Shown piece after piece: positions 18,817 to 34,094 of a stretch of DNA of 64,000 bases. The notes beneath the pieces were generated by a model. The model was not told the DNA's origin. It saw nothing but the letters and a program-made list of their open reading frames with translations, and did no database searches. Each line of letters opens with the position of its first letter. Positions within the stretch are counted from its first letter, which is position 1. Position numbers and translations under genes: made by a program. Source of the stretch: Methanosarcina sp. UBA5 (GTDB lineage: Archaea > Halobacteriota > Methanosarcinia > Methanosarcinales > Methanosarcinaceae); the NCBI RefSeq assembly GCF_002505485.1, contig NZ_DAVG01000099.1, forward strand, positions 7,561-71,560, read 5' to 3'.

Positions 18817-19607
18817 GTCATTGAAGTCGGGGAGCCTGAAGTTGAATGGTTTCCTATCTTTGCCAAGGTGCGCAGAATCCAGAGGATAACTCCGAAAGAA
18901 ATTAGGAAGAACATGGAGTTTAGGATAAGCGATTTCGGAATGTTTACGGATAAACACAAGCTGGAGCTTGAGGACTTGTAGGGTTCGGAGCATCAGAAGT
19001 TATGCTTACAGGCCTGAGTCGGGGTTTGCTTGATACAACCGTAACCGCCTGCGAAGGCGCAGGAACTGTAATTTCCAATAACTCAATCCTTGTTCAGGGC
19101 ATGGGCAGCAGGATGTCCGGACTTGTCGAAACCGAGCCGATTAACGGAATTATCAACGGGATTCAGGAACGCGGCGGGATCGTGCTTGACTCATCAACTG
19201 CAAAAATAGACCCGGTTGCAGGAGTTCGGAAGGCAGCAGAACTCGGTTACAAAAAAATTTCAGTAACCGTGGCTTTCGCTGAAACCGCAAAAGAATTAGG
19301 GAAACTTGAAGCCGAACTCGAGCTTGATTTAATATTAATTGGCGTACATGTTACAGGTTTAAACAAAGAGGAAGCCCAGACCCTGATTGAAAACGCTGAT
19401 ATTACAACCAGCTGCGCTTCAAAGTACATGAGAGATCTTGTAAAGTCTCTTGCCCAGGTAGGAGCTGCAGTTCTGCTTTTTGCCTTTACCCAGAAAGGAA
19501 AAGAACTTATGATTGAAAGGGCAAAGGATGTCAAAAGTCCACTTCTGATCAATACCATGCCTTTGCCTACATTGCCTGAAAACAAACAGCCAACAGAATT
19601 AAAGTAA
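18817..19607 (+). pseudogene. DUF2099 (methanogenesis-marker-8-like) paralogue, N-terminally truncated and frameshifted
   Basis: VIEVGEPEVEWFPIFAKVRRIQRITPKEIRKNMEF...KLELEDL* aligns to residues about 20-85 of the intact downstream paralogue. The frame then shifts near 18970-18978 to ...GFGASEVMLTGLSRGLLDTTVTACEGAGTV (ORF 19002-19607). No start codon; an in-frame TAA lies 5 codons upstream. Confidence 0.75.
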
Positions 19608-19924
19608 AACGAAAATTGAAGTAAAACGAATGAAAACGGTATAGACATCGTTATTACTTTTTTTACTTTACCTTTTTTAACCCTGTTCTTTAGCTTTTTA
19701 TTTAATGCTTCACTTTTCTTTCTTCTTTCGCTCTCTGTTCTTCTTTCTTATCTTCCTCCTTCTCTCCCAATACTCCATTTCATTAACAGATTTAAGATTT
19801 CAGCCTGAGCAAAAGTAAGATCAGGTCGTTTGTACGGTAGAATCACCATAGAAAGTTAGAATAATTAAGGCAAGAATCAGAATATCAAGTAATATTATTT
19901 TTGATTCCGGAAGGTGTGTTTCTA

Positions 19925-20776
19925 ATGCCTCACATAATGGAAATGATGGGTAAAGCCAGGGTAGTCGTAAAAGACGGAAAAGTGATAGAAGTCGGAGCTC
20001 CTGTAGTCGAATGGTGCCCACTTTTTGTCAAACTGCGGGGAGTCCAGAAGATGACTCCGGAAGAAATCCGGAAAAATATGGAGTCCCAGATCCGCGAGTT
20101 AGGAATGTTTACAGAGAATCGTAAGCTCGAATTTGAAACAACCGTTGTTGCCTTTGGTGCTTCAGAAATAATGATGAGCGGCCTCAATAGCGGCTTTATA
20201 GAAACAACTGTAACCGCCTGCGACGGTGCAGGGACTGTTATATCAGGCAATCCGGCTCTGGTTCAGGGAATTGGAGGTAGGATGTCCGGCCTAGTTGAAA
20301 CCGAACCAATAGATGCAGTTATTAAGGGAATTGAAGAGCGTGGAGGAACTGTGCTTGATCCCTCAACCGCAGCCATTGATCCGGCAAGTGGGGTAAGGAA
20401 AGCCGCCAAACTTGGCTACAGAAAGATCGCGGTAACCGTAGCCGACCTGAAAACCGCAAAAAACCTGAGAAAGCTTGAAATCGAACTCAGGCTTGACCTG
20501 ATAATAGTTGCCGTACATGTTACGGGAGTAAGCAAGGAAGAAGCTCAGGGGATTCTTGAAAACTCGGATATCGTAATCAGCTGTGCCTCCAGACACATAA
20601 GGGAACTTGCAAAGCCTCTAATGCAGGTAGCGGCCGCAATTCCGCTTTTTGCCCTTACCCAGAAAGGAAAAGAACTTGTGATTGAAAGGGCAAAGGACAT
20701 TCAGAGCCCAATTCTAATCAATACAACGAAGCTGCCTGTGCTCCCTGCACATAAACAGCCGAAAAATCTTGTTTAA
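19925..20776 (+). CDS. DUF2099 family protein (methanogenesis-marker-8-like)
   Basis: MPHIMEMMGKARVVVKDGKVIEVGAPVVEWCPLF...TTVTACDGAGTV...GRMSGLVETEP. ATG 19925 is preferred to the TTG at 19901. Confidence 0.75.
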   Translation: MPHIMEMMGKARVVVKDGKVIEVGAPVVEWCPLFVKLRGVQKMTPEEIRKNMESQIRELGMFTENRKLEFETTVVAFGASEIMMSGLNSGFIETTVTACDGAGTVISGNPALVQGIGGRMSGLVETEPIDAVIKGIEERGGTVLDPSTAAIDPASGVRKAAKLGYRKIAVTVADLKTAKNLRKLEIELRLDLIIVAVHVTGVSKEEAQGILENSDIVISCASRHIRELAKPLMQVAAAIPLFALTQKGKELVIERAKDIQSPILINTTKLPVLPAHKQPKNLV

Positions 20777-21373: not shown

Positions 21374-24300
21374 TTAAGGTAAATTTGGAAATGTCCTGTG
21401 ATAAGGCTCATCACCCATATACTTTTTCCATTCCTCTGGTGTAAGATTCCGGGTTAAACGACTGCTAGCTTCATTTATAAGATTATCTATATTAAATATC
21501 CACAACCTTGCTTTATAGTCAGCACTCGCCGTTGCCATATATTTTCCATCAGGACTGAAAACAACATCATTTACCGGACCATTATGGTTCAGAACAGTAA
21601 TTTGTTTACCTTTAGATGTATCCCATACATGTGATGTACTGTCATTGCTTGCCGTTGCTACATATTTTCCATCAGGACTGAATACAACACTATATACTGG
21701 ACCATCATGGTTCAAAACAAAATATTTTTCACCTGTTGATACATTCCATAGACTTGCTGTGTTGTCCCAACTCGCCGTTGCGATGAATTTTCCATCAGGA
21801 CTGAAAACAACTTTAACCACCCTATCATAATGTCTTAGAACAGTAATTTGTTCACCCGTAGAAACATTCCATAAACGTGCTGTCTTGTCACGACTCGCCG
21901 TTGCGATGTATTTTCCATCAGGACTGAAAACAACTTTAACCACCCTATCATAATGTTTGAAAGGAACCAAAATTTGTTCACCTGTAAATGCATTCCACAA
22001 ACGTGCTGTTTTGTCAGAACTCGCCGTTGCGATGTATTTTCCATCAGGACTAAAAACAACATCATTTACCGAACCATTATGGTTCAGAACCAAAATTTGT
22101 TCACCTGTAGATGCATTCCATAAACGTGCTGTTTTGTCAGAACTCACCGTTGCAATATATTTTCCATCAGGGCTGAACACAACATTGTTTACCGGACCCT
22201 CATGGTTCAGAACAAAGATTTCTTTACCTGTAGAAACATTCCATACGTGACCCGTAGATGCATTCCACACGCGTGATGTATTGTCCCAACTCGCCGTTGC
22301 CATATATTTTCCATCAGGACTGAAAACAACATTACTCACTAAACCATTATGTTTGAGAGGAGCCAATATTTGTTCACCCGTAGATGCATCCCATAAACGT
22401 GATGTACTGTCATTGCTCGCTGTAGCGACGTATTTTCCATCAGGACTAAAAACAATTTTAAATACCTTATTATCATGGTTCAGAATATCATATTCTGTAG
22501 ATGCATCCCATAAACGTGATGTACTGTCATTGCTCGCTGTAGCGACGTATTCTCCATCAGGACTGAAAACAACGTTATTCACCACATCACCATGGTTCAG
22601 AACAAAGATTTGTTTACCTGTAGCTACATTCCATACTTGTGATGTACTGTCAGAACTCGCTGTTGCGATGTATTTTCCATCAGGGCTGAACGCAACATTG
22701 TTTACCGGACCCTCATGGTTCAGAACAGAAATTTCTTTACCTGTAGATGCATTCCATAAACATGCTGTGTTGTCATTGCTCGCCGTTGCGATATATTTTC
22801 CATCAGGGCTGAACGCAACGTTGTTTACCGAACCTTCATGGTTCAGAACAAAGATTTGTTTACCTGTAGATGCATTCCATAAACGTGCTGCTTTGCCATT
22901 GCTCGCCGTTGCGACGTATTTTCCATCAGGACTGAACATAACATTATTCACCCCGTCACCATGGTTCAGAACCACAACGCTATGAGGTATGAGTAATAAT
23001 CCCTGACGTATTAACCGATCAGCACCCAACATTAACTGATCAGCATCCAATGTCCTACTAATTCTGAATGATTCAATAGCAAGAAGGACACTTTTATCTA
23101 GATTTCTAGGATCTCCTTGTAGAAGGCTGGATTTTAAATTTAACTCATCTGAAACATGAGCTTCTCTCATCTCTGTCTCTGCCAGATACCAGTGATAGGT
23201 TGCAAATCCAGCTATAATTAAAATTATGAAGAAAGCTGCACCCATTTTCTTATTGCGGCTTCTGCTCAATTCTTTCTCTGCCTGTTCTTCCTTTGCCCGT
23301 TTCTTCTCTGCCAGTTCATCATTAAAAACCTTGTTAGAAAATAGTATCGGTTTGATAAACCTGTCGTGTGTCAGTTCATACCAGCGCGCACCTGCCCGCC
23401 ACTCTGCTCTAATAAGGTGCATGCTTTCAAGCACATCAATAGCTGCATTAGGAATCCCGCCAGTGAAATCGTGAGCCCGATACACCATCCCTCGCGTCCC
23501 CATTGTTGTTATCATCACTTCACCGCACAATCTGCGCAGACCCTCCTCATCAATGTGTGCCTTCTCTGCCGCTGCCCTTATAGCCTCTTCGTAAAATCTG
23601 TAAAGTTCCTGTTCTACATTACCATAGGTTTTCAGGTGCTGAAACGTTATTTGCCTTACATCTGGTGGTAACTCCCTCCAGAGGTTCTGGCATACTACCT
23701 GAAGTTGCACAGCTTCTATGAACTCTCCTTTTACCTCAGCGGTCTTGCCGGGCATTGTTTCAACTCGAATTGTTAGCAACTCATCGACAAGTTTTTCTGC
23801 TACGCCCTCTTCAAAAGAACGACCAGTATATTTTAACGGTCCTTTGATTGCTAGCAGTGCAGCCTCGCGGCGCAGACTCTCTACGTGAAAACGCGTCCGC
23901 AATCTGTCGGGCAGAAGATCTGCATAGGGATCTAGCTGAGCTATGAAATCCTCCCGCATGACAAAAACAACCCTTAAGAGAGGATCTGCTTCCAGAACAG
24001 TGCTTACTTGCTCAAAGAATCCGTCCCTATCTTTCCAGCGGTCCTGATACAAAGAGAATATTTCCTCAAACTGATCGAAGATGACGACACGAGGTAAAGG
24101 CATACCCTCTTCATCCTGCATACGACTCTGCCCATTCAAAAAATCAACAAGTTTCATTCTAGCCAGGCACTTAATATTACACTCACCTTCAGCCCAGCTT
24201 GTTAGGGTATTAAAGACGTATATATTCGAGATCTCATCAGTTTTTATGTTATTCAAAGGTGTACCTTTAACTCGTGCTACTGGCAGAACTTCGAACTGGT

Positions 24301-24499
24301 TTTCTTTCAAGAGAGGAATAAGCCCTGCATTGAAAAGTGAAGTCTTACCTGCACCCGACTGGGCATAGACGAGAACCAGATTATGTGCAATGACCAGGGA
24401 CAGGAGATCTCGAGCTTCACGGTCTCTTCCAAAAAAAATGAATTTATCTTCCAGTTCAAAAGGTCGAGGACCCACATAAGCCTGGAATTCAGGTCCCAC
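21374..24499 (-). CDS. nSTAND-type P-loop NTPase, single TM helix, 12 WD40 repeats (predicted sensor/switch of a conflict system)
   Basis: N-terminus AYVGPRPFELEDKFIFFGRDRE, Walker A AQSGAGKTS (24338-24364), Walker B VVIFDQFEE (24062-24088) and WYELTHDRFI. TM segment MGAAFFIILIIAGFATYHWY (23186-23245). Twelve FSPDGKY(I/V)ATAS.D.T..LW repeats. GTG start preceded by gggagg. Confidence 0.9.
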   Translation of the reverse strand: MGPEFQAYVGPRPFELEDKFIFFGRDREARDLLSLVIAHNLVLVYAQSGAGKTSLFNAGLIPLLKENQFEVLPVARVKGTPLNNIKTDEISNIYVFNTLTSWAEGECNIKCLARMKLVDFLNGQSRMQDEEGMPLPRVVIFDQFEEIFSLYQDRWKDRDGFFEQVSTVLEADPLLRVVFVMREDFIAQLDPYADLLPDRLRTRFHVESLRREAALLAIKGPLKYTGRSFEEGVAEKLVDELLTIRVETMPGKTAEVKGEFIEAVQLQVVCQNLWRELPPDVRQITFQHLKTYGNVEQELYRFYEEAIRAAAEKAHIDEEGLRRLCGEVMITTMGTRGMVYRAHDFTGGIPNAAIDVLESMHLIRAEWRAGARWYELTHDRFIKPILFSNKVFNDELAEKKRAKEEQAEKELSRSRNKKMGAAFFIILIIAGFATYHWYLAETEMREAHVSDELNLKSSLLQGDPRNLDKSVLLAIESFRISRTLDADQLMLGADRLIRQGLLLIPHSVVVLNHGDGVNNVMFSPDGKYVATASNGKAARLWNASTGKQIFVLNHEGSVNNVAFSPDGKYIATASNDNTACLWNASTGKEISVLNHEGPVNNVAFSPDGKYIATASSDSTSQVWNVATGKQIFVLNHGDVVNNVVFSPDGEYVATASNDSTSRLWDASTEYDILNHDNKVFKIVFSPDGKYVATASNDSTSRLWDASTGEQILAPLKHNGLVSNVVFSPDGKYMATASWDNTSRVWNASTGHVWNVSTGKEIFVLNHEGPVNNVVFSPDGKYIATVSSDKTARLWNASTGEQILVLNHNGSVNDVVFSPDGKYIATASSDKTARLWNAFTGEQILVPFKHYDRVVKVVFSPDGKYIATASRDKTARLWNVSTGEQITVLRHYDRVVKVVFSPDGKFIATASWDNTASLWNVSTGEKYFVLNHDGPVYSVVFSPDGKYVATASNDSTSHVWDTSKGKQITVLNHNGPVNDVVFSPDGKYMATASADYKARLWIFNIDNLINEASSRLTRNLTPEEWKKYMGDEPYHRTFPNLP
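21494..22981 (-). repeat. 126-bp (42-codon) tandem repeat array encoding the WD40 blades
   Basis: Runs of identical DNA occur between units, for example the 42-nt ccatcaggactgaaaacaactttaaccaccctatcataatgt at both 21793-21834 and 21919-21960. Confidence 0.9.
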
Positions 24500-24560
24500 T
24501 ATTGAAAGCCTCCCATCGCGTTCTCAATTCTGCGGAAAATTGTTGGCATTACTAACACCC
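24497..24560 (-). other. scar of a deleted SIR2 module: SIR2-gene leader plus first codons joined to SIR2-domain last codons
   Basis: 24497-24541 is 39/45 identical to 25629-25673. 24539-24560 is 21/22 identical to 26507-26528. The blocks abut at a shared att. Confidence 0.8.
24499..24549 (-). other. 16-codon upstream ORF (MPTIFRRIENAMGGFQ*) whose TAG overlaps the NTPase GTG start
   Basis: The ATG is the complement of 24547-24549. The stop TAG (24499-24501) shares one nt with the GTG (24497-24499). Confidence 0.35.
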
Positions 24561-25005: not shown

Positions 25006-26517
25006 TTATGACTGATCCTTCTTTATTAAAACCGGTGTTAGATGCTCTGGAATACCATGTAGTTGAATTTGTACACACCCAAATCTATATGCTTCTTCAA
25101 TGCTACGCCCTCCTCCTAATGCCTGGTAAAAACCAATAGCGAAGGCGATAGCAGCTTTATCGCCGATTGCTTGGTTCATGCCAATGACATATTTGATGTG
25201 TTTGGCGATGGCTTTTGCCTGAATCTCTGCGTAACAAGCGTTCAAAACTACACAATTCACCTGACCACTAAATTGTTCAAACAATGCAGCCAACGCATCA
25301 GGCTCGATTGGGTGATTTTTCCCTTCCAGATCCTCAAAGCATAACGCACCAGTAGGTGTGCCGTGACCAGAAAAATGGACAATATACGGCTGTATATCAA
25401 GCAAAGCTTGGGATATATCTGATGGGCGAACTGACAATTGTGGCAATAATGTAAAGCGGTCCCGAAATTTAGCCAATTTCAGTTTTTCTTGAATCTCTCG
25501 AAATTCTTCACCAAGCCGCAGGCGAGATTCATTAGTGGGATCGGCTGCTAAGAAGAGTATCGAAACCTTATCGGTTTTTTCTTTAATTAGGAAAGCTTGC
25601 CTATTTTCGGCATTTATTTTTGTGATATCACTCTTGAAAGCCTCCCATCGTGTTTTCAATTCCTCGGCAAATTCGCTGCAATCGTGCCAGTATACCTGGA
25701 TATGAAGATCCTTATCAAAATAGCGATCCAGATATTTCTGAGCTTTTTCTTCAAGGGTATCGGAAACATTCCCTGGCACGATCTGCACGGATATGTGCTT
25801 TCTATTCTCACTTCTTCCGATGTAGTCATCAAGAATCCTGCAAAGAACACGGAAATCCCAATCAGTTACCTTGTAGCCTATAAGAAGAAGAGATGTGCCT
25901 CCAAATGCTTCCTGAATACGCGGCGGAAGCAGGTTTTGATCCTTTGAAACGGCAACAAGGAAGTCCAGATAGTTGTCCTCTGTTAGAACCAGTGACTCTG
26001 GTCTTTTATACCATCCATGGAGGTGATATACTAAAGGTTTGTCCGGAGTGGGATCGAAGTCTGATGACGTTGGTTTGCGTTGCCTGAGTTCTTCATTCCA
26101 CAGACATATTTCCTGGGTTGGTGCTTTGCCACGGCTTTTAAGAGCTTGCACCATAAGGTCATCGTAAGTTGTGGTAATATAAACTGGCAGTGGGAGATAG
26201 GCTAATACTCCGTGAATTTCATTACGAGCTTCAAAATATGTTGGTGTGACTTCTTCTGACAGTTCAGTGATTCTATTACAAATCTCATCCCTTGGAAACA
26301 TCTCGTCTTGGGTCACAGCCACAAACTGAGCCACCCGTGTCAAGTCGTCCGAGTCTTCCATTGGGTAGTCGTACTCTTCTGCCCATTCATTTGCAATCTG
26401 GGAAATAACAGAAATCTTTTCAGAACAGGCCCCAGATCCAAGAAAAGGAGTACACTTTCCATACTTGATTCTCTTAAGAAGAATGTCCCAATCCTTCTCT
26501 TCCAGCATTGTTGGCAC
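25006..26517 (-). CDS. SIR2-like (SIR2_2) domain fused to a CHAT/caspase-like peptidase domain
   Basis: SIR2 motifs are PFLGSGAC, ITTTYDD, VYHLHG, LTEDNYLDF and LLLIGYKVTDWD. The CHAT part is ILFLAADP...VHFSGHG (His codon 25363-25365)...VVLNACY (Cys codon 25234-25236). Start is ambiguous: GTG 26526, GTG 26517 or ATG 26508. Confidence 0.9.
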   Translation of the reverse strand: MPTMLEEKDWDILLKRIKYGKCTPFLGSGACSEKISVISQIANEWAEEYDYPMEDSDDLTRVAQFVAVTQDEMFPRDEICNRITELSEEVTPTYFEARNEIHGVLAYLPLPVYITTTYDDLMVQALKSRGKAPTQEICLWNEELRQRKPTSSDFDPTPDKPLVYHLHGWYKRPESLVLTEDNYLDFLVAVSKDQNLLPPRIQEAFGGTSLLLIGYKVTDWDFRVLCRILDDYIGRSENRKHISVQIVPGNVSDTLEEKAQKYLDRYFDKDLHIQVYWHDCSEFAEELKTRWEAFKSDITKINAENRQAFLIKEKTDKVSILFLAADPTNESRLRLGEEFREIQEKLKLAKFRDRFTLLPQLSVRPSDISQALLDIQPYIVHFSGHGTPTGALCFEDLEGKNHPIEPDALAALFEQFSGQVNCVVLNACYAEIQAKAIAKHIKYVIGMNQAIGDKAAIAFAIGFYQALGGGRSIEEAYRFGCVQIQLHGIPEHLTPVLIKKDQS

Positions 26518-26665
26518 TACTAACACCCCCCAAGAAGTTAAATTCTCTTCTCAATTTTTCTCGTGTTTATTTTCCCCACTCACCTTTCTTTCCACTCACC
26601 TGCTGTCTTGAAAGCAAATTAAAAATCAGGACACAGAATGGAAATGTTTTCAACTCCACAATTTC

Positions 26666-26992
26666 TCAACTTTTCCAGGTCAAAGTCACGTTAAAATTAG
26701 CGCCCGTACCCGCTGCTATAAACATACCGGCTTTTAAATCCATTGAAATGCCAAAAGAAACTTTAACTTCTTCCGGTTGCTTACTGAGATCTTTTAACCG
26801 ATTCAATACAGTATTAGCAACAGGCTTTACAATACCAAGCGATTCTTCAAATGTCTGATTTGTGATATTTACTATCTCACGAGATGTAGATGAACGTGAA
26901 ACACGAGTTATTTCCCCTTCAACTTCAGCCTCTTCTGCTTCTATTAATACAGTACTACCATCTTCCAGAGTTAATTTTACAAGGCGTTTCAT
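26666..26992 (-). CDS. Trypco2-like (CU044_2847-family-like) small protein
   Basis: 108 aa. MKRLVKLTLEDGSTVLIEAEE...EEVKVSFGISMDLKAGMFIAAGTGANFNVTLTWKS matches the family pattern as I recall it (vpLedGg.vlVEv...evEfGvkls.eaGa.iaka..eanfkVtl.W). Confidence 0.75.
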   Translation of the reverse strand: MKRLVKLTLEDGSTVLIEAEEAEVEGEITRVSRSSTSREIVNITNQTFEESLGIVKPVANTVLNRLKDLSKQPEEVKVSFGISMDLKAGMFIAAGTGANFNVTLTWKS

Positions 26993-32609: not shown

Positions 32610-34094
32610 ATGGCCTATTTTAAAGAGCGGGAAGCCGAGATCAATGGTTCTCTCCTTGCCGTGTTGTCCGGGGAAAACCTCCTCTTCCTCGGTCCGCCTG
32701 GAACGGCAAAAACCCAGCTTGCGAAAAGTATCTGCCAGTTAATCGAAGGCGGAAATTTCTTCAATTATCTCCTGACAAGTTTTTCCACCCCTGAAGAGCT
32801 CTTTGGTCCGCTTTCCTTAAAAGCCCTGGAAGAAGATGAATTCCGCCGGAAAATTAACGGCTGCCTCCCGACTGCTCATGTTGCTTTGTTGGACGAGATT
32901 TTTAAAGCAAGCAGTGCGATCCTTAACAGCCTCCTGACCATTCTCAATGAGCACAAATACCATAACGGGAGAGAGCTTGTAGATGTACCACTGCTCTCGG
33001 TTTTCGGGGCATCTAATGAGTTTCCTGATGAAAACGAGAGTCTTGAAGCCCTTTATGACCGCTTTTTATTCAGGTACAGTCTCGCATATATTCAGGACGA
33101 AGGGAATTTCCGGGACCTCCTTTTCAGGAGCCATGACGAGTTCGAACCTGCTGCAAGTCTCATTATTTCTGCAATATACGAACTTCGGGCACGTGCAAAA
33201 GATCTGCCTGTTGACCCTGACGTTGAGGTCATTATAACTGAGCTTCGAAAAAACCTCCAGCTTCAGGAGATTGAAATCTCGGACCGGCGCTGGAAGAAAA
33301 TTATTGAGGTGCTTAGGGTTGCGGCTTGCAGTAGCGAGTGCCCGACTGTGGACAGGACAATGGTGCTCCTGCTTCAGCACATGCTCTGGAACCTTCCCGA
33401 AGAGCGGGAAACCATAAGGAAAACCGTCTTTGAGTTCGCAATCTCAGGTGGTATTAATACGGAAAAACTGCGTCAGGAAGCCGAAGACCTTCAGACTGTA
33501 GTAAGCATTGCCCTGAAAAACGAACTTCCTGTAAAGATTGTCTGCGACAGCTGCGGAGAAGAATTCCGGCTGAGGCAGGAAATTGAAACTCACCATATTT
33601 CCCACCCGAATCACAGCTATACGCTTAAAATGGAAGGATCTTCAAGGATCTATCCTTATGACAACCTTGTGAGAGAAATTGATTCGCTCCAGGAATCGGC
33701 TGGAGAAGCGAGCACACTGCCCCAGGTCCAGAAAGAAATTTTTGAAAAAGAATTGGAAGCCCTGGCCGATCGTCTGGAACGCGTAAAATACAGGCTTGAA
33801 GCCGAAAGGGAACTTCTCAAAAACCTGATGGATACGAATATCTGGCTCTCGACGCTTGACAGAAACGAAGCTCTCCTCCTGCACGATACCCGAAGTATCG
33901 AATTATCCGAGCTCAATGACCTTATCTCAAAAAGCCGGTCAATGCTCGGACTGCAGAACAGACAGAGGCAACCTGAACCGCAGCCTGCAAAAGGAGCAGG
34001 AAAAAGAGAAATGGAAAAAATTTCCATATCCGATTCGGGCAGCAATGTTAATAGTTTTATGAAAGGTCTTAGCTCCCGATTTAAGCTCAGATAA
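32610..34094 (+). CDS. MoxR/RavA-like AAA+ ATPase with embedded classical C2H2 zinc finger and coiled-coil C-terminus
   Basis: Walker A GPPGTAKT, Walker B ALLDEIF and sensor region SLLTILNE. C-x2-C-x3-F-x5-I-x2-H-x3-H lies at 33543-33605. The in-frame upstream sequence (...LKEKLLEIKSAF) lacks a canonical start, so the N-terminus is uncertain. Confidence 0.8.
   Translation: MAYFKEREAEINGSLLAVLSGENLLFLGPPGTAKTQLAKSICQLIEGGNFFNYLLTSFSTPEELFGPLSLKALEEDEFRRKINGCLPTAHVALLDEIFKASSAILNSLLTILNEHKYHNGRELVDVPLLSVFGASNEFPDENESLEALYDRFLFRYSLAYIQDEGNFRDLLFRSHDEFEPAASLIISAIYELRARAKDLPVDPDVEVIITELRKNLQLQEIEISDRRWKKIIEVLRVAACSSECPTVDRTMVLLLQHMLWNLPEERETIRKTVFEFAISGGINTEKLRQEAEDLQTVVSIALKNELPVKIVCDSCGEEFRLRQEIETHHISHPNHSYTLKMEGSSRIYPYDNLVREIDSLQESAGEASTLPQVQKEIFEKELEALADRLERVKYRLEAERELLKNLMDTNIWLSTLDRNEALLLHDTRSIELSELNDLISKSRSMLGLQNRQRQPEPQPAKGAGKREMEKISISDSGSNVNSFMKGLSSRFKLR

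What the first reader, a model, noticed from the sequence alone, without database searches (positions are those of the whole stretch)
21494..22981. WD40 sensor is a highly internally conserved 126-bp tandem array with fresh indel scars
The 12 blades share long stretches of identical DNA, for example a 42-nt exact match at 21793-21834 and 21919-21960. Amino-acid differences concentrate at a few positions per blade: NH.G.V..V and AS.D.T...W, with N/S/W/R/A, N/S/K/Y and R/C/Q/S/H variants.

Two irregularities look like unequal-recombination products. One is a 24-nt partial duplication giving ...VWNASTGHVWNVSTGKEI (22227-22270). The other is a shortened linker, DASTEYDILNH (about 22483-22500).

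This is the pattern described for the HIC WD40/TPR repeats of fungal and bacterial NLR-like STAND proteins. There, repeat shuffling generates new recognition specificities.
Basis: partly seen in the sequence, partly recalled or inferred. Interest (0 to 1): 0.62.

Follow-up and report, generated by a model that had tools for sequence, protein, structure and literature searches.

The report
Repetitive WD40 sensor in archaeal STAND
The region is the 12-blade WD40 tail of a membrane-anchored nSTAND1 ATPase in a Methanosarcina-family archaeon, a known kind of variable-surface repeat sensor, but the two "fresh scars" are old conserved features and the blade count itself (12 or 14) is uncertain.

Summary
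The array is real. It has 12 WD40 units at 21467-22966 (minus strand) inside a 1041-aa gene: nSTAND1 NTPase, one TM helix, then WD40. The gene lies downstream of Trypco1 and SIR2/CHAT-like genes in a Methanosarcinaceae genome.

Several details are off. The period is 123 bp, not 126. The quoted exact match is really 47 nt at offset 123. Units share 76% DNA and 64% amino-acid identity, below the fungal HIC threshold of 85%.

Variation does sit on the predicted top face. The WDSP hotspot positions R1-2, R1 and D-1 are unit positions 5, 7 and 23. Omega there is about 0.8-1.1, against 0.07-0.27 for the scaffold. This shows relaxed or diversifying constraint; positive selection is not proven.

Both "scars" are old. 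The short linker is present in every orthologue. The 8-codon duplication is shared by three lineages, and its two copies are only 75% identical.

The recent event lies elsewhere. An independent contig with 100% identical flanks carries a 246-bp duplication of units 2-3, giving 14 units. Unitig depth in the best-matching run is 1.7-3x over those units. The window's 12 units may therefore be an assembly collapse or a true polymorphism.

Orthologues have 12-16 units. This is a new member of a known kind.

The parts
21374..24499 (-). Whole gene, 1041 aa: nSTAND1 NTPase, TM helix, 12 WD40 units, conserved C-terminal tail
   Evidence: ORF and translation. Pfam PF20703 scores 131 bits against a cut-off of 27.1; PF00400 matches 12 stretches. 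The AF2 model has mean pLDDT 86.
23552..24478 (-). nSTAND1 NTPase domain (aa 8-316), with Walker A motif SGAGKTS
   Evidence: S48, G49, G51, K52 and S54 are invariant in 36 homologues.
23183..23239 (-). Predicted single TM helix (aa 421-439). The N-side flank is K/R-rich (5 versus 1).
   Evidence: Hydropathy scan of 36 homologues; most have a stronger TM helix at the same place. AF2 predicts a helix at aa 424-460.
22967..22984 (-). Strand HSVVVL ahead of unit 1; a likely 'velcro' D-strand that closes a blade
   Evidence: DSSP strand E509-512. Unit 12 lacks a D strand and is followed by a helix.
21467..22966 (-). WD40 array of 12 units. u1 22844-22966; u2 22721-22843; u3 22598-22720; u4 22481-22597; u5 22355-22480; u6 22208-22354; u7 22085-22207; u8 21959-22084; u9 21836-21958; u10 21713-21835; u11 21590-21712; u12 21467-21589.
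22598..22843 (-). Units 2-3: a 246-bp pair whose copy number is uncertain. It is single here and tandemly duplicated in contig L083, whose flanks are identical. A 33-nt exact repeat (22591-22623 = 22837-22869) sits at its borders.
   Evidence: Unitig depth in run X1 is 28-48 here against 15-18 in the flanks.
22481..22498 (-). Short linker TEYDIL (unit 4 has 39 aa): a conserved landmark that splits the array into an N-part and a C-part
   Evidence: Present in L081 u6, L002 u6, L001 u8 and P0006 u4. A 37-aa form is present in L003 and L004.
22223..22270 (-). Old tandem duplication of 8 codons (VWNASTGH / VWNVSTGK) in the C-D loop of unit 6
   Evidence: TRF period 24. The two copies match at 18 of 24 nt. 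The duplication is shared with L081 and L002 (39-42 of 48 nt identical between lineages) and is absent in L001. AF2 pLDDT is below 50 at aa 750-757.
21787..21833 (-). 47-nt exact match with 21910-21956: a conversion tract that makes the variable loop of unit 9 identical to that of unit 10 (HYDRVVKVVF)
   Evidence: The orthologue L081 keeps a different unit 11 (HYGWVTNVVF). In the tree WIN_09 groups with WIN_10 and L081_12.
22380..22434 (-). 55-nt exact match with 22497-22551: a conversion tract between units 5 and 4 (ATASNDSTSRLWDAST)
   Evidence: L081 u6 differs from its u7 at this place.
21377..21466 (-). Conserved helical C-terminal tail (SSRLTRNLTPEEWKKYMGDEPYHRTFPNLP)
   Evidence: Conserved in all full-length orthologues. 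AF2 helices at aa 1004-1014 and 1021-1028.
25006..26526 (-). Upstream partner gene: SIR2_2 domain fused to a CHAT-like domain (506 aa), the presumed effector
   Evidence: Pfam PF13289 E 3e-24 and PF12770 E 1e-6. PADLOC ThsA-type SIR2 and chat models hit. A SIR2 gene lies directly upstream of the NTPase in 10 of 11 related loci.
26666..26992 (-). Trypco1 domain protein (108 aa)
   Evidence: Pfam PF19493 E 3e-22. Conserved in L002 (89% identity) and L083.

Best explanation
The array is the ligand-sensing domain of a single-copy, membrane-anchored nSTAND1 (STAND-class) NTPase of a Methanosarcinaceae archaeon. The gene forms a conflict or defence-type module with an upstream SIR2/CHAT-like effector and a Trypco1 protein.

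Each 41-aa unit is one propeller blade. It has an almost invariant scaffold (H..V..V.FSPDGKY.ATAS.D.T...W) and a handful of free positions. These lie in the D-A loop, at the start of strand A and in the B-C loop, and together they form the top face.

The array evolves by slow unit turnover:
- A conserved backbone of positional orthologues (units 5, 6, 8, 10, 11, 12, plus the short-linker landmark).
- Short gene-conversion tracts (u9 from u10, and between u4 and u5).
- Gain or loss of units in two-unit (246-bp) steps by unequal homologous recombination at short identical stretches, mainly in the N-terminal half.

Inferred, not shown: ligand binding on the variable face triggers NTP-dependent oligomerisation and activates the SIR2-type (NAD-consuming) effector, as in Avs, NLR and NWD systems. 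The positive-inside rule suggests that the NTPase is cytoplasmic and the WD40 part lies outside the membrane.
For: Architecture and neighbours:
- A SIR2 gene directly upstream of the NTPase is conserved from Methanosarcinaceae to Anaerolineae and Acidobacteriota.
- The genome holds a single copy.
- The closest solved structures are the Nostoc WRAP double propeller 2ymu (E 6e-135; Foldseek rank 1) and Apaf-1.

Position of the variable residues:
- Variable columns are unit positions 3, 4, 5, 7, 8, 23, 25, 28 and 39.
- DSSP of the AF2 model puts positions 2-5 in the D-A loop and 23-25 in the B-C loop.
- The pattern V-R1-R2-V and the residue before the tetrad Asp (PMC3419727) identify positions 5, 7 and 23 as the R1-2, R1 and D-1 top-face hotspots.
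- The same x-positions appear in the consensus of 36 homologues.

Selection:
- Between positional orthologues (window versus L081), omega is 0.77 at the variable codons and 0.07 at the scaffold. Fisher p is 1e-12.

Turnover:
- Unit counts are 12, 12, 14, 16, 16 and 16 in orthologues.
- The unit tree shows cross-genome positional clades plus genome-specific clusters.
- There is a 12 versus 14 unit difference on 100% identical flanks.
Against: - Omega at the variable sites is about 1, not above 1, so neutral relaxation explains them equally well.
- No coordinates of the model were available. Top-face placement rests on secondary structure plus published rules, not on measured solvent exposure.
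- No function has been tested for any nSTAND1-WD40 protein.
- No Avs or NLR model in PADLOC matches the protein.
- If the WD40 part is outside the cell, the usual model of a cytoplasmic STAND sensing phage proteins does not apply directly.
- Two of eight Methanosarcinaceae orthologues are frameshifted relics without the array, so the gene is dispensable.
Confidence: 0.68

Rival explanations
1. The copy number in the window is an assembly artefact. The real array in this strain has 14 or more units, and the assembler collapsed a 246-bp, 98.8% identical tandem duplication of units 2-3. The rest of the finding stands, but '12 blades' is wrong.
For: - Contig L083 from another assembly is 100% identical over about 14 kb of flanks and over the whole gene. 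The only differences are the duplication and three SNPs at 22658, 22820 and 22831.
- Logan unitigs of the best-holding run X1 carry exactly those three variants.
- Those unitigs have depth 28-48 over 22594-22866, against 15-18 in the flanks.
- The duplication borders coincide with a 33-nt exact repeat.
- The 12-unit form has no junction of its own, so short k-mers cannot tell the two forms apart.
- 14 blades (7+7) is the canonical double propeller, as in 2ymu.
Against: - Unitig depths are summed over multi-mapping pieces and are noisy. The bridging unitig 22698-22742 has only 27.8.
- A real deletion by unequal crossing-over would give exactly the window's sequence.
- Orthologues with 12 units exist (L002, P0006).
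- It is not known whether X1 is the source sample.
Confidence: 0.45
2. The array reflects neutral amplification, differentiation and decay of a young propeller (the Lupas model), with no adaptive diversification. Blades were amplified fairly recently, surface loops drift because they are unconstrained, and the gene is on its way to loss in some lineages.
For: - Omega is about 1 at the variable sites.
- Within-array synonymous divergence (0.40) is only slightly above the between-species value (0.30).
- L007 and L016 are pseudogenised orthologues.
- Pereira and Lupas 2022 describe this cycle and frequent disruption in WRAP-type proteins.
Against: - The variable positions coincide with the three experimentally defined binding hotspots, not with all loops. 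The bottom loops hold only about 12% of the column entropy, against about 45% for the top-face positions.
- The scaffold is under strong purifying selection (omega 0.07).
- The landmark architecture is kept across lineages.
- Conserved linkage to SIR2 effectors across phyla argues for a maintained function.
Confidence: 0.2
3. The protein is not an anti-virus sensor. It is an outward-facing cell-surface recognition or signalling protein, for example for kin or aggregate recognition in multicellular Methanosarcina. The WD40 face would bind a partner on neighbouring cells.
For: - A TM helix with a K/R-rich N flank is conserved in most homologues. This predicts a cytoplasmic NTPase and an extracytoplasmic propeller.
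- Kaur et al. 2020 note that such systems track multicellular habit, including Methanosarcina.
- Fungal NWD/HET WD40 NLRs act in allorecognition.
Against: - The topology is only predicted. The hydrophobicity of the window's helix is modest (KD 1.76).
- The SIR2/CHAT/Trypco1 neighbourhood is typical of abortive-infection type conflict systems.
- No secretion signal or S-layer anchoring motif was looked for or seen.
Confidence: 0.12

Closest known systems
WRAP, the recently amplified WD40 propellers of cyanobacterial STAND proteins (Npun_R6612, PDB 2ymu; Dunin-Horkawicz 2014; Pereira and Lupas 2022, PMC9218822)
   Same: - The same blade lineage (FSPDG..IA[ST]AS.D.T.[KR]LWN).
- Best PDB match by sequence (E 6e-135) and by fold.
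- C-terminal to a STAND ATPase.
- Median blade identity of 63% passes their cut-off of above 60%.
- Relatives show disruption and decay.
   Different: - Npun_R6612 blades are above 90% identical with no synonymous changes. Here identity is 64% with dS about 0.4.
- The host is an archaeon.
- The NTPase is of the nSTAND1 clade and carries a TM helix.
- The partner is a SIR2/CHAT gene, not a TIR-STAND gene.
HIC WD40 repeats of fungal NWD/HET-E/D/R NLRs (Paoletti 2007; Dyrka 2014, PMC4986451)
   Same: - STAND NTPase plus WD40 array.
- Variability confined to a few top-face positions per repeat.
- Repeat-number differences.
- Conversion tracts.
   Different: - The threshold of at least 85% identity over at least 100 aa is not met (best 75%).
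- There is no paralogue family to exchange with.
- Omega is not above 1.
- Most units are stable positional orthologues.
nSTAND1 conflict systems with Trypco and effector neighbours (Kaur, Burroughs, Iyer, Aravind 2020/2021, PMC7159879, PMC8195603)
   Same: - PF20703 NTPase.
- Trypco1 neighbour.
- Caspase-like (CHAT) and NAD-targeting effector domains.
- Occurrence in Methanosarcina, which those authors note for related systems.
   Different: - Trypco1 was defined as a partner of trypsin-like peptidases. Here it sits beside a SIR2/CHAT-like protein.
- No EAD adaptor pair was identified.
- No vWA-MoxR couple is in the operon, although a bpMoxR gene lies 8 kb away.
Apaf-1 and Avs-type STAND sensors
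   Same: NTPase followed by tandem WD40 propellers. Apaf-1 is the second-best fold match. The system logic resembles the SIR2-STAND Avs5.
   Different: - No Avs model in PADLOC matches.
- The effector is a separate gene.
- A TM helix separates the NTPase from the sensor.

Membership tests
Fungal-type HIC repeats (Dyrka et al. 2014) | At least 85% identity between repeats over at least 100 aa | tested here: not met
   The best ungapped 100-aa self-match is 75%. Mean unit identity is 64% and the maximum is 83%. The definition comes from PMC4986451.
Fungal-type HIC repeats (Dyrka et al. 2014) | Repeat-number polymorphism between strains | tested here: inconclusive
   12 versus 14 units on 100% identical flanks, but assembly collapse cannot be excluded. 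Orthologous species carry 12-16 units.
Fungal-type HIC repeats (Dyrka et al. 2014) | Positive diversifying selection at top-face codons | tested here: inconclusive
   Omega is 0.77-1.1 at the variable codons and 0.07-0.27 at the scaffold. The difference is significant (p 1e-12), but omega is not above 1.
Fungal-type HIC repeats (Dyrka et al. 2014) | Concerted evolution within and between paralogous genes | tested here: not met
   The genome has only one nSTAND1 gene and one such array. Units do not cluster by genome: 29 label changes against 30.1 when shuffled. Only local conversion tracts are seen.
Highly repetitive beta-propellers / WRAP branch (Pereira and Lupas 2022) | Median blade-to-blade identity above 60%, with at least 2 consecutive blades | tested here: met
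   Median identity is 63.4% over 66 pairs. The cut-off is from PMC9218822.
Highly repetitive beta-propellers / WRAP branch (Pereira and Lupas 2022) | WD40-superfamily blades related to Npun_R6612, placed C-terminal to a STAND ATPase | tested here: met
   2ymu is the best hit by phmmer (E 6e-135) and by Foldseek. nSTAND1 lies N-terminal.
Highly-Repetitive WD40 (Hu et al. 2017) | Internal identity of at least 0.7 | tested here: not met
   Identity is 0.64-0.66, which falls in their 'moderately repetitive' band of 0.4-0.7. Their exact window method was not reproduced.
nSTAND1 NTPase conflict systems (Kaur et al. 2020/2021) | NTPase domain matching PF20703 above the gathering score, with an intact P-loop | tested here: met
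   131 bits against a cut-off of 27.1. GAGKTS is invariant in 36 homologues.
nSTAND1 NTPase conflict systems (Kaur et al. 2020/2021) | Neighbouring effector and adaptor genes | tested here: met
   SIR2_2 plus CHAT-like, and Trypco1, lie upstream on the same strand. The SIR2 linkage is conserved in relatives.
nSTAND1 NTPase conflict systems (Kaur et al. 2020/2021) | Shared effector-associated domain (EAD) linking NTPase and effector | not tested
   Pfam reported no EAD domain at E up to 0.01. No dedicated EAD profiles were searched.
Avs (antiviral STAND) families | Match to Avs1-5 profile models | tested here: not met
   PADLOC 2.0 gives only HEAT-ARM_XIII (on the WD region) and a weak mad8 hit.

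The most novel reading that the evidence does not exclude
The 12- and 14-unit forms are both real. They would coexist in one clonal Methanosarcina population because the array switches in two-blade (246-bp) steps at 33-nt identical stretches. That would make it a contingency-locus-like mechanism that re-tiles an outward-facing WD40 sensor of a membrane-spanning STAND NTPase. It would be an archaeal, extracellular-sensing variant of NLR-type receptors.
Probability: 0.15. Interest if true: 0.65.

Novelty: new member of a known kind. Interest (0 to 1): 0.36.

Why it matters
Internally repetitive WD40 sensors on STAND NTPases have been described for cyanobacteria, other bacteria and fungi. This case shows the same design in a methanogenic archaeon, probably acquired from bacteria: the nearest non-archaeal relatives are Anaerolineae at about 50% identity.

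It offers a clean natural series. Arrays of 12, 14 and 16 blades are built around a fixed landmark, which allows slow unit turnover to be separated from point variation at binding hotspots.

There is also a practical point. Blade counts in short-read assemblies of such genes cannot be trusted without long reads.

If the conserved TM helix really puts the propeller outside the cell, the family would be a transmembrane STAND receptor. That arrangement is unusual and is testable in genetically tractable Methanosarcina strains.

Tried and rejected
- The quoted 42-nt match does not hold as given. It was replaced by an exhaustive exact-repeat scan.
- I looked for paralogous arrays in the genome as partners for concerted evolution. 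There are none; only an unrelated 28%-identical WD40 gene on contig C35.
- I looked for model coordinates to compute surface exposure. None are exposed to the Python box, so the mapping relies on DSSP plus published rules.
- I tried to lay run X1 on the 14-unit contig L083.
- Joints seen in soil metagenomes X2, X3 and X6 were not used. They have low depth, short sides and 90% likeness, and k=31 unitigs in a repeat are unreliable.
- I considered the 8-aa insert as the remnant of a deleted unit. I rejected this because the residue after TG varies (H, R, S) and the two 8-codon copies align as a simple tandem duplication.
- P0005 (7 units) versus P0003 (14 units) at the same locus, with 97.8% identical flanks, could be a real deletion or a MEGAHIT collapse. 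This is left open.
- No small ORF or other element was found in the 506-bp gap upstream of the gene. The only signal is a weak 13-aa SIR2-like match.
Full report
**What is there**

The finding lies inside one ORF on the minus strand, 21374-24499, encoding 1041 aa. Pfam gives an nSTAND1 NTPase at aa 8-316 (131 bits against a cut-off of 27.1) and twelve WD40 stretches (E 5e-112). Between them lie a charged coiled segment and one hydrophobic helix at aa 421-439.

Anchoring on the SPDG motif gives 12 units at aa 512-1011, window 21467-22966. Nine units have 41 aa (123 bp), two have 42 aa, one has 39 aa (unit 4...DASTEYDIL) and one has 49 aa (unit 6, with VWNASTGH/VWNVSTGK). Tandem Repeats Finder reports periods of 123, 246-249 and 369, not 126.

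**Check of the quoted details**

The pair 21793-21834 / 21919-21960 is not identical. The true match is 47 nt, 21787-21833 = 21910-21956, at offset 123. The longest exact repeat is 55 nt, 22380-22434 = 22497-22551.

Pairwise unit identity averages 76% for DNA (range 59-88%) and 64% for protein (range 44-83%). The median protein identity is 63%, and the best 100-aa self-match is 75%.

The array is therefore much more self-similar than ordinary WD40 proteins. It passes the above-60% cut-off of Pereira and Lupas for 'highly repetitive' propellers (PMC9218822). It misses the at-least-85%-over-100-aa definition of fungal HIC repeats (PMC4986451). It falls in the 'moderately repetitive' band of Hu et al. 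2017 (PMC5587647).

**Where the variation sits**

Among units 1-11 the invariant scaffold is H2, V6, F11-S-P-D-G15, A19, T20, S22 and W30. The most variable columns are unit positions 5, 3, 39, 7, 23, 28, 8 and 25.

The AF2 model of the full protein was built from an alignment of 36 homologues and has mean pLDDT 86. Its DSSP places positions 2-5 in the D-A loop, 6-11 in strand A, 12-16 in the A-B loop, 17-22 in strand B, 23-25 in the B-C loop and 26-31 in strand C.

The published rule for WD40 top-face hotspots uses the pattern (V/L/I)-R1-R2-(V/L/I) and the residue before the tetrad Asp (PMC3419727). Applied here, it maps R1-2, R1 and D-1 to unit positions 5, 7 and 23.

About 45% of the total column entropy lies in the ten positions of the D-A loop, R1/R2 and the B-C loop. 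About 12% lies in the ten bottom-loop positions (computed). The consensus of 36 family members shows 'x' at the same positions.

I could not obtain model coordinates. The top-face clustering is therefore supported by secondary structure plus established rules, not by measured exposure.

**Selection**

I ran Nei-Gojobori counts on the first 34 codons of each unit.

| Comparison | Omega, 8 variable codons | Omega, scaffold |
|---|---|---|
| Within the array | 1.10 | 0.25 |
| Window units 4-12 vs L081 units 6-14 (positional orthologues; an independent test) | 0.77 | 0.07 |
| Window vs L001 | 1.06 | 0.27 |

For the L081 comparison there were 32 nonsynonymous differences in 176 sites at the variable codons, against 11 in 545 at the scaffold (Fisher p 1e-12). 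The NTPase domain has omega 0.20-0.26.

The variable positions are thus free of constraint while the scaffold is strongly constrained. Omega is not above 1, so diversifying selection is compatible with the data but not shown.

Within-array synonymous divergence (0.40) is only a little above that between orthologous units of different species (0.30). This implies amplification or homogenisation not much older than these species splits.

**Organism and relatives**

The NTPase half finds its best matches in Methanosarcinaceae:
- L001, 86% identity.
- L002, 82%.
- Methanosarcina hadiensis L003, 79%.
- L004, L006, L007 and L016.

The next best are Anaerolineae and Acidobacteriota at 47-50%. The host is therefore an archaeon that probably acquired the gene from bacteria. 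The genome (3.8 Mb, 40% GC) has one copy only.

**The two 'scars'**

The short linker is present in every orthologue with an array:

| Orthologue | Unit | Sequence |
|---|---|---|
| L081 (P0003) | 6 | DASTEYDIL |
| L002 | 6 | DASTESNVL |
| L001 | 8 | DASTESDVL |
| P0006 | 4 | DAFTESDVL |
| L003, L004 | 37-aa form | |

It divides every array into a variable N-part of 4, 6 or 8 units and a C-part of 8 units (6 in L002). It is a conserved landmark, not a fresh deletion.

The 8-codon duplication is shared by the window, L081 and L002 and is absent from L001 and P0006. Its two copies are only 18-19 of 24 nt identical within each genome. The 48-nt segment is 81-88% identical between genomes. It predates those lineages. 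AF2 models it as a low-confidence loop (aa 750-757, pLDDT below 50). 'Fresh indel scars' is therefore refuted.

**What does change**

Unit numbers in orthologues are 12 (window, L002, P0006), 14 (L081) and 16 (L001, L003, L004). All are even.

A maximum-likelihood tree of 54 units from four genomes shows supported cross-genome clades for positional orthologues:
- window u5 with L081 u7, L002 u7 and L001 u9.
- u6 with L002 u8 and L001 u10.
- u10 with L081 u12.
- u11 with L081 u13.
- u12 with L081 u14, L001 u16 and L002 u12.

It also shows genome-specific clusters: window u2/u3/u7; L081 u2/u4/u5; L001 u5/u12. Genome labels are not clustered overall (29 changes against 30.1 when shuffled), so there is no wholesale concerted evolution.

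The two long exact matches are conversion tracts. Window u9 carries u10's variable loop (HYDRVVK), where L081 u11 has HYGWVTN. Window u4 carries u5's NDSTSRLWDAST, where L081 u6 has NDKTACLWDAST.

**A truly recent event, and an assembly caveat**

The 90% cluster of the protein holds a second member, P0122, of 1123 aa. Its contig L083 comes from a JGI metagenome and has the same gene order.

L083 is 100% identical to the window over about 14 kb of flanks and over the whole gene, with two exceptions. One is a 246-bp tandem duplication of units 2-3. The other is three SNPs at window positions 22658, 22820 and 22831. The duplication borders coincide with a 33-nt exact repeat, 22591-22623 = 22837-22869. 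This is the signature of unequal homologous exchange.

In the public run that holds most of the stretch (X1, 0.92 of words), Logan unitigs carry exactly these three variants. Their depth is 28-48 across 22594-22866, against 15-18 for unique unitigs elsewhere in the array and in the flanks.

Two readings remain open. The strain may have 14 or more units and the window's assembly collapsed the duplicate. Or both forms exist. The 12-unit form has no junction of its own, so k=31 unitigs cannot decide.

Elsewhere in the array the longest exact repeat is 55 nt and unique unitig depth is flat. I see no sign of collapse outside units 2-3.

A second pair, P0003 (14 units) and P0005 (7 units), sits at one locus with 97.8% identical flanks. 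It may be a real deletion or a collapse.

**Context and likely mechanism**

Upstream on the same strand lie a 506-aa SIR2_2 plus CHAT-like protein and a Trypco1 protein. PADLOC matches the former to ThsA-type SIR2 and chat models. A SIR2 gene lies directly upstream of the NTPase in 10 of 11 related loci, including bacterial ones. In some relatives it abuts the start codon.

nSTAND1 and Trypco1 were defined in predicted conflict systems of multicellular prokaryotes, with Methanosarcina named among the few archaea (PMC8195603, PMC7159879).

The closest solved structures are the Nostoc WRAP double propeller 2ymu and Apaf-1.

By analogy, which is inference and not shown here, the variable face binds a ligand, the NTPase oligomerises and the SIR2-type effector is switched on.

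A conserved TM helix with a K/R-rich N-side flank occurs in most homologues. It suggests the propeller is outside the membrane, which would make this a transmembrane STAND receptor. This is only a prediction.

Two of eight Methanosarcinaceae orthologues are frameshifted relics lacking the array. This fits the turnover described for WRAP-type genes.

**Verdict**

The general interpretation holds: a STAND-linked WD40 sensor with a variable top face and changing repeat number. The 'fresh scars' and the HIC label do not hold.

The kind of thing is already well described, so this is a new, archaeal member of a known kind. The useful additions are the conserved landmark architecture, the two-unit step changes, and the 12-versus-14 discrepancy that calls the window's blade count into question.

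Noticed in passing
window 23183-23239, and homologues in alignment A1: A single TM helix between NTPase and WD40 is conserved in most nSTAND1-WD40 homologues, bacterial ones included. The N flank is K/R-rich (5-7 residues against 0-4). This predicts a cytoplasmic NTPase and an extracytoplasmic propeller.
   Followed up: partly
L007 8001-9192 and L016 8001-9154: In two Methanosarcinaceae species the orthologous NTPase is broken by frameshifts (frames 3, 2, 1 and 1, 2). No WD40 array follows. These are decaying copies.
   Followed up: partly
L081 6001-9366 versus L082 2881-5358: The same locus in two metagenomes (flanks 97.8% identical) encodes 14 versus 7 WD40 units. The 7-unit form needs two jumps (u2 to u4 to u9). 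It is either a real deletion or a short-read collapse.
   Followed up: partly
window 24510-24548: A weak 13-aa match (69% identity, E 0.002) to the C-terminus of the stand-alone SIR2 gene that abuts the NTPase in relatives. The window keeps only the SIR2/CHAT fusion 500 bp upstream.
   Followed up: partly
window 32610-34094: A bpMoxR-type AAA ATPase (PF20030, E 1e-51), a family defined in MoxR-vWA-beta-propeller ternary conflict systems. It lies 8 kb from the nSTAND1 module. No vWA partner was looked for.
   Followed up: no
window 19002-19607 and 19901-20776: Two adjacent DUF2099 genes. The first lacks about 80 N-terminal residues of the family profile. This is a tandem duplicate with one truncated copy.
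   Followed up: no
all orthologous arrays: Unit totals are always even (12, 14, 16). The C-part after the short linker has 8 units in 6 of 7 arrays. TRF scores the 246-bp period as high as the 123-bp one. This hints at a two-blade unit of change or a structural constraint.
   Followed up: partly
window 22034-22184 in runs X2, X3, X6: Soil metagenomes hold unitigs identical to the window over units 9-12. They also hold a minor unitig with 13 differences in 151 nt over units 7-8. This may be a mosaic strain variant or another organism.
   Followed up: no
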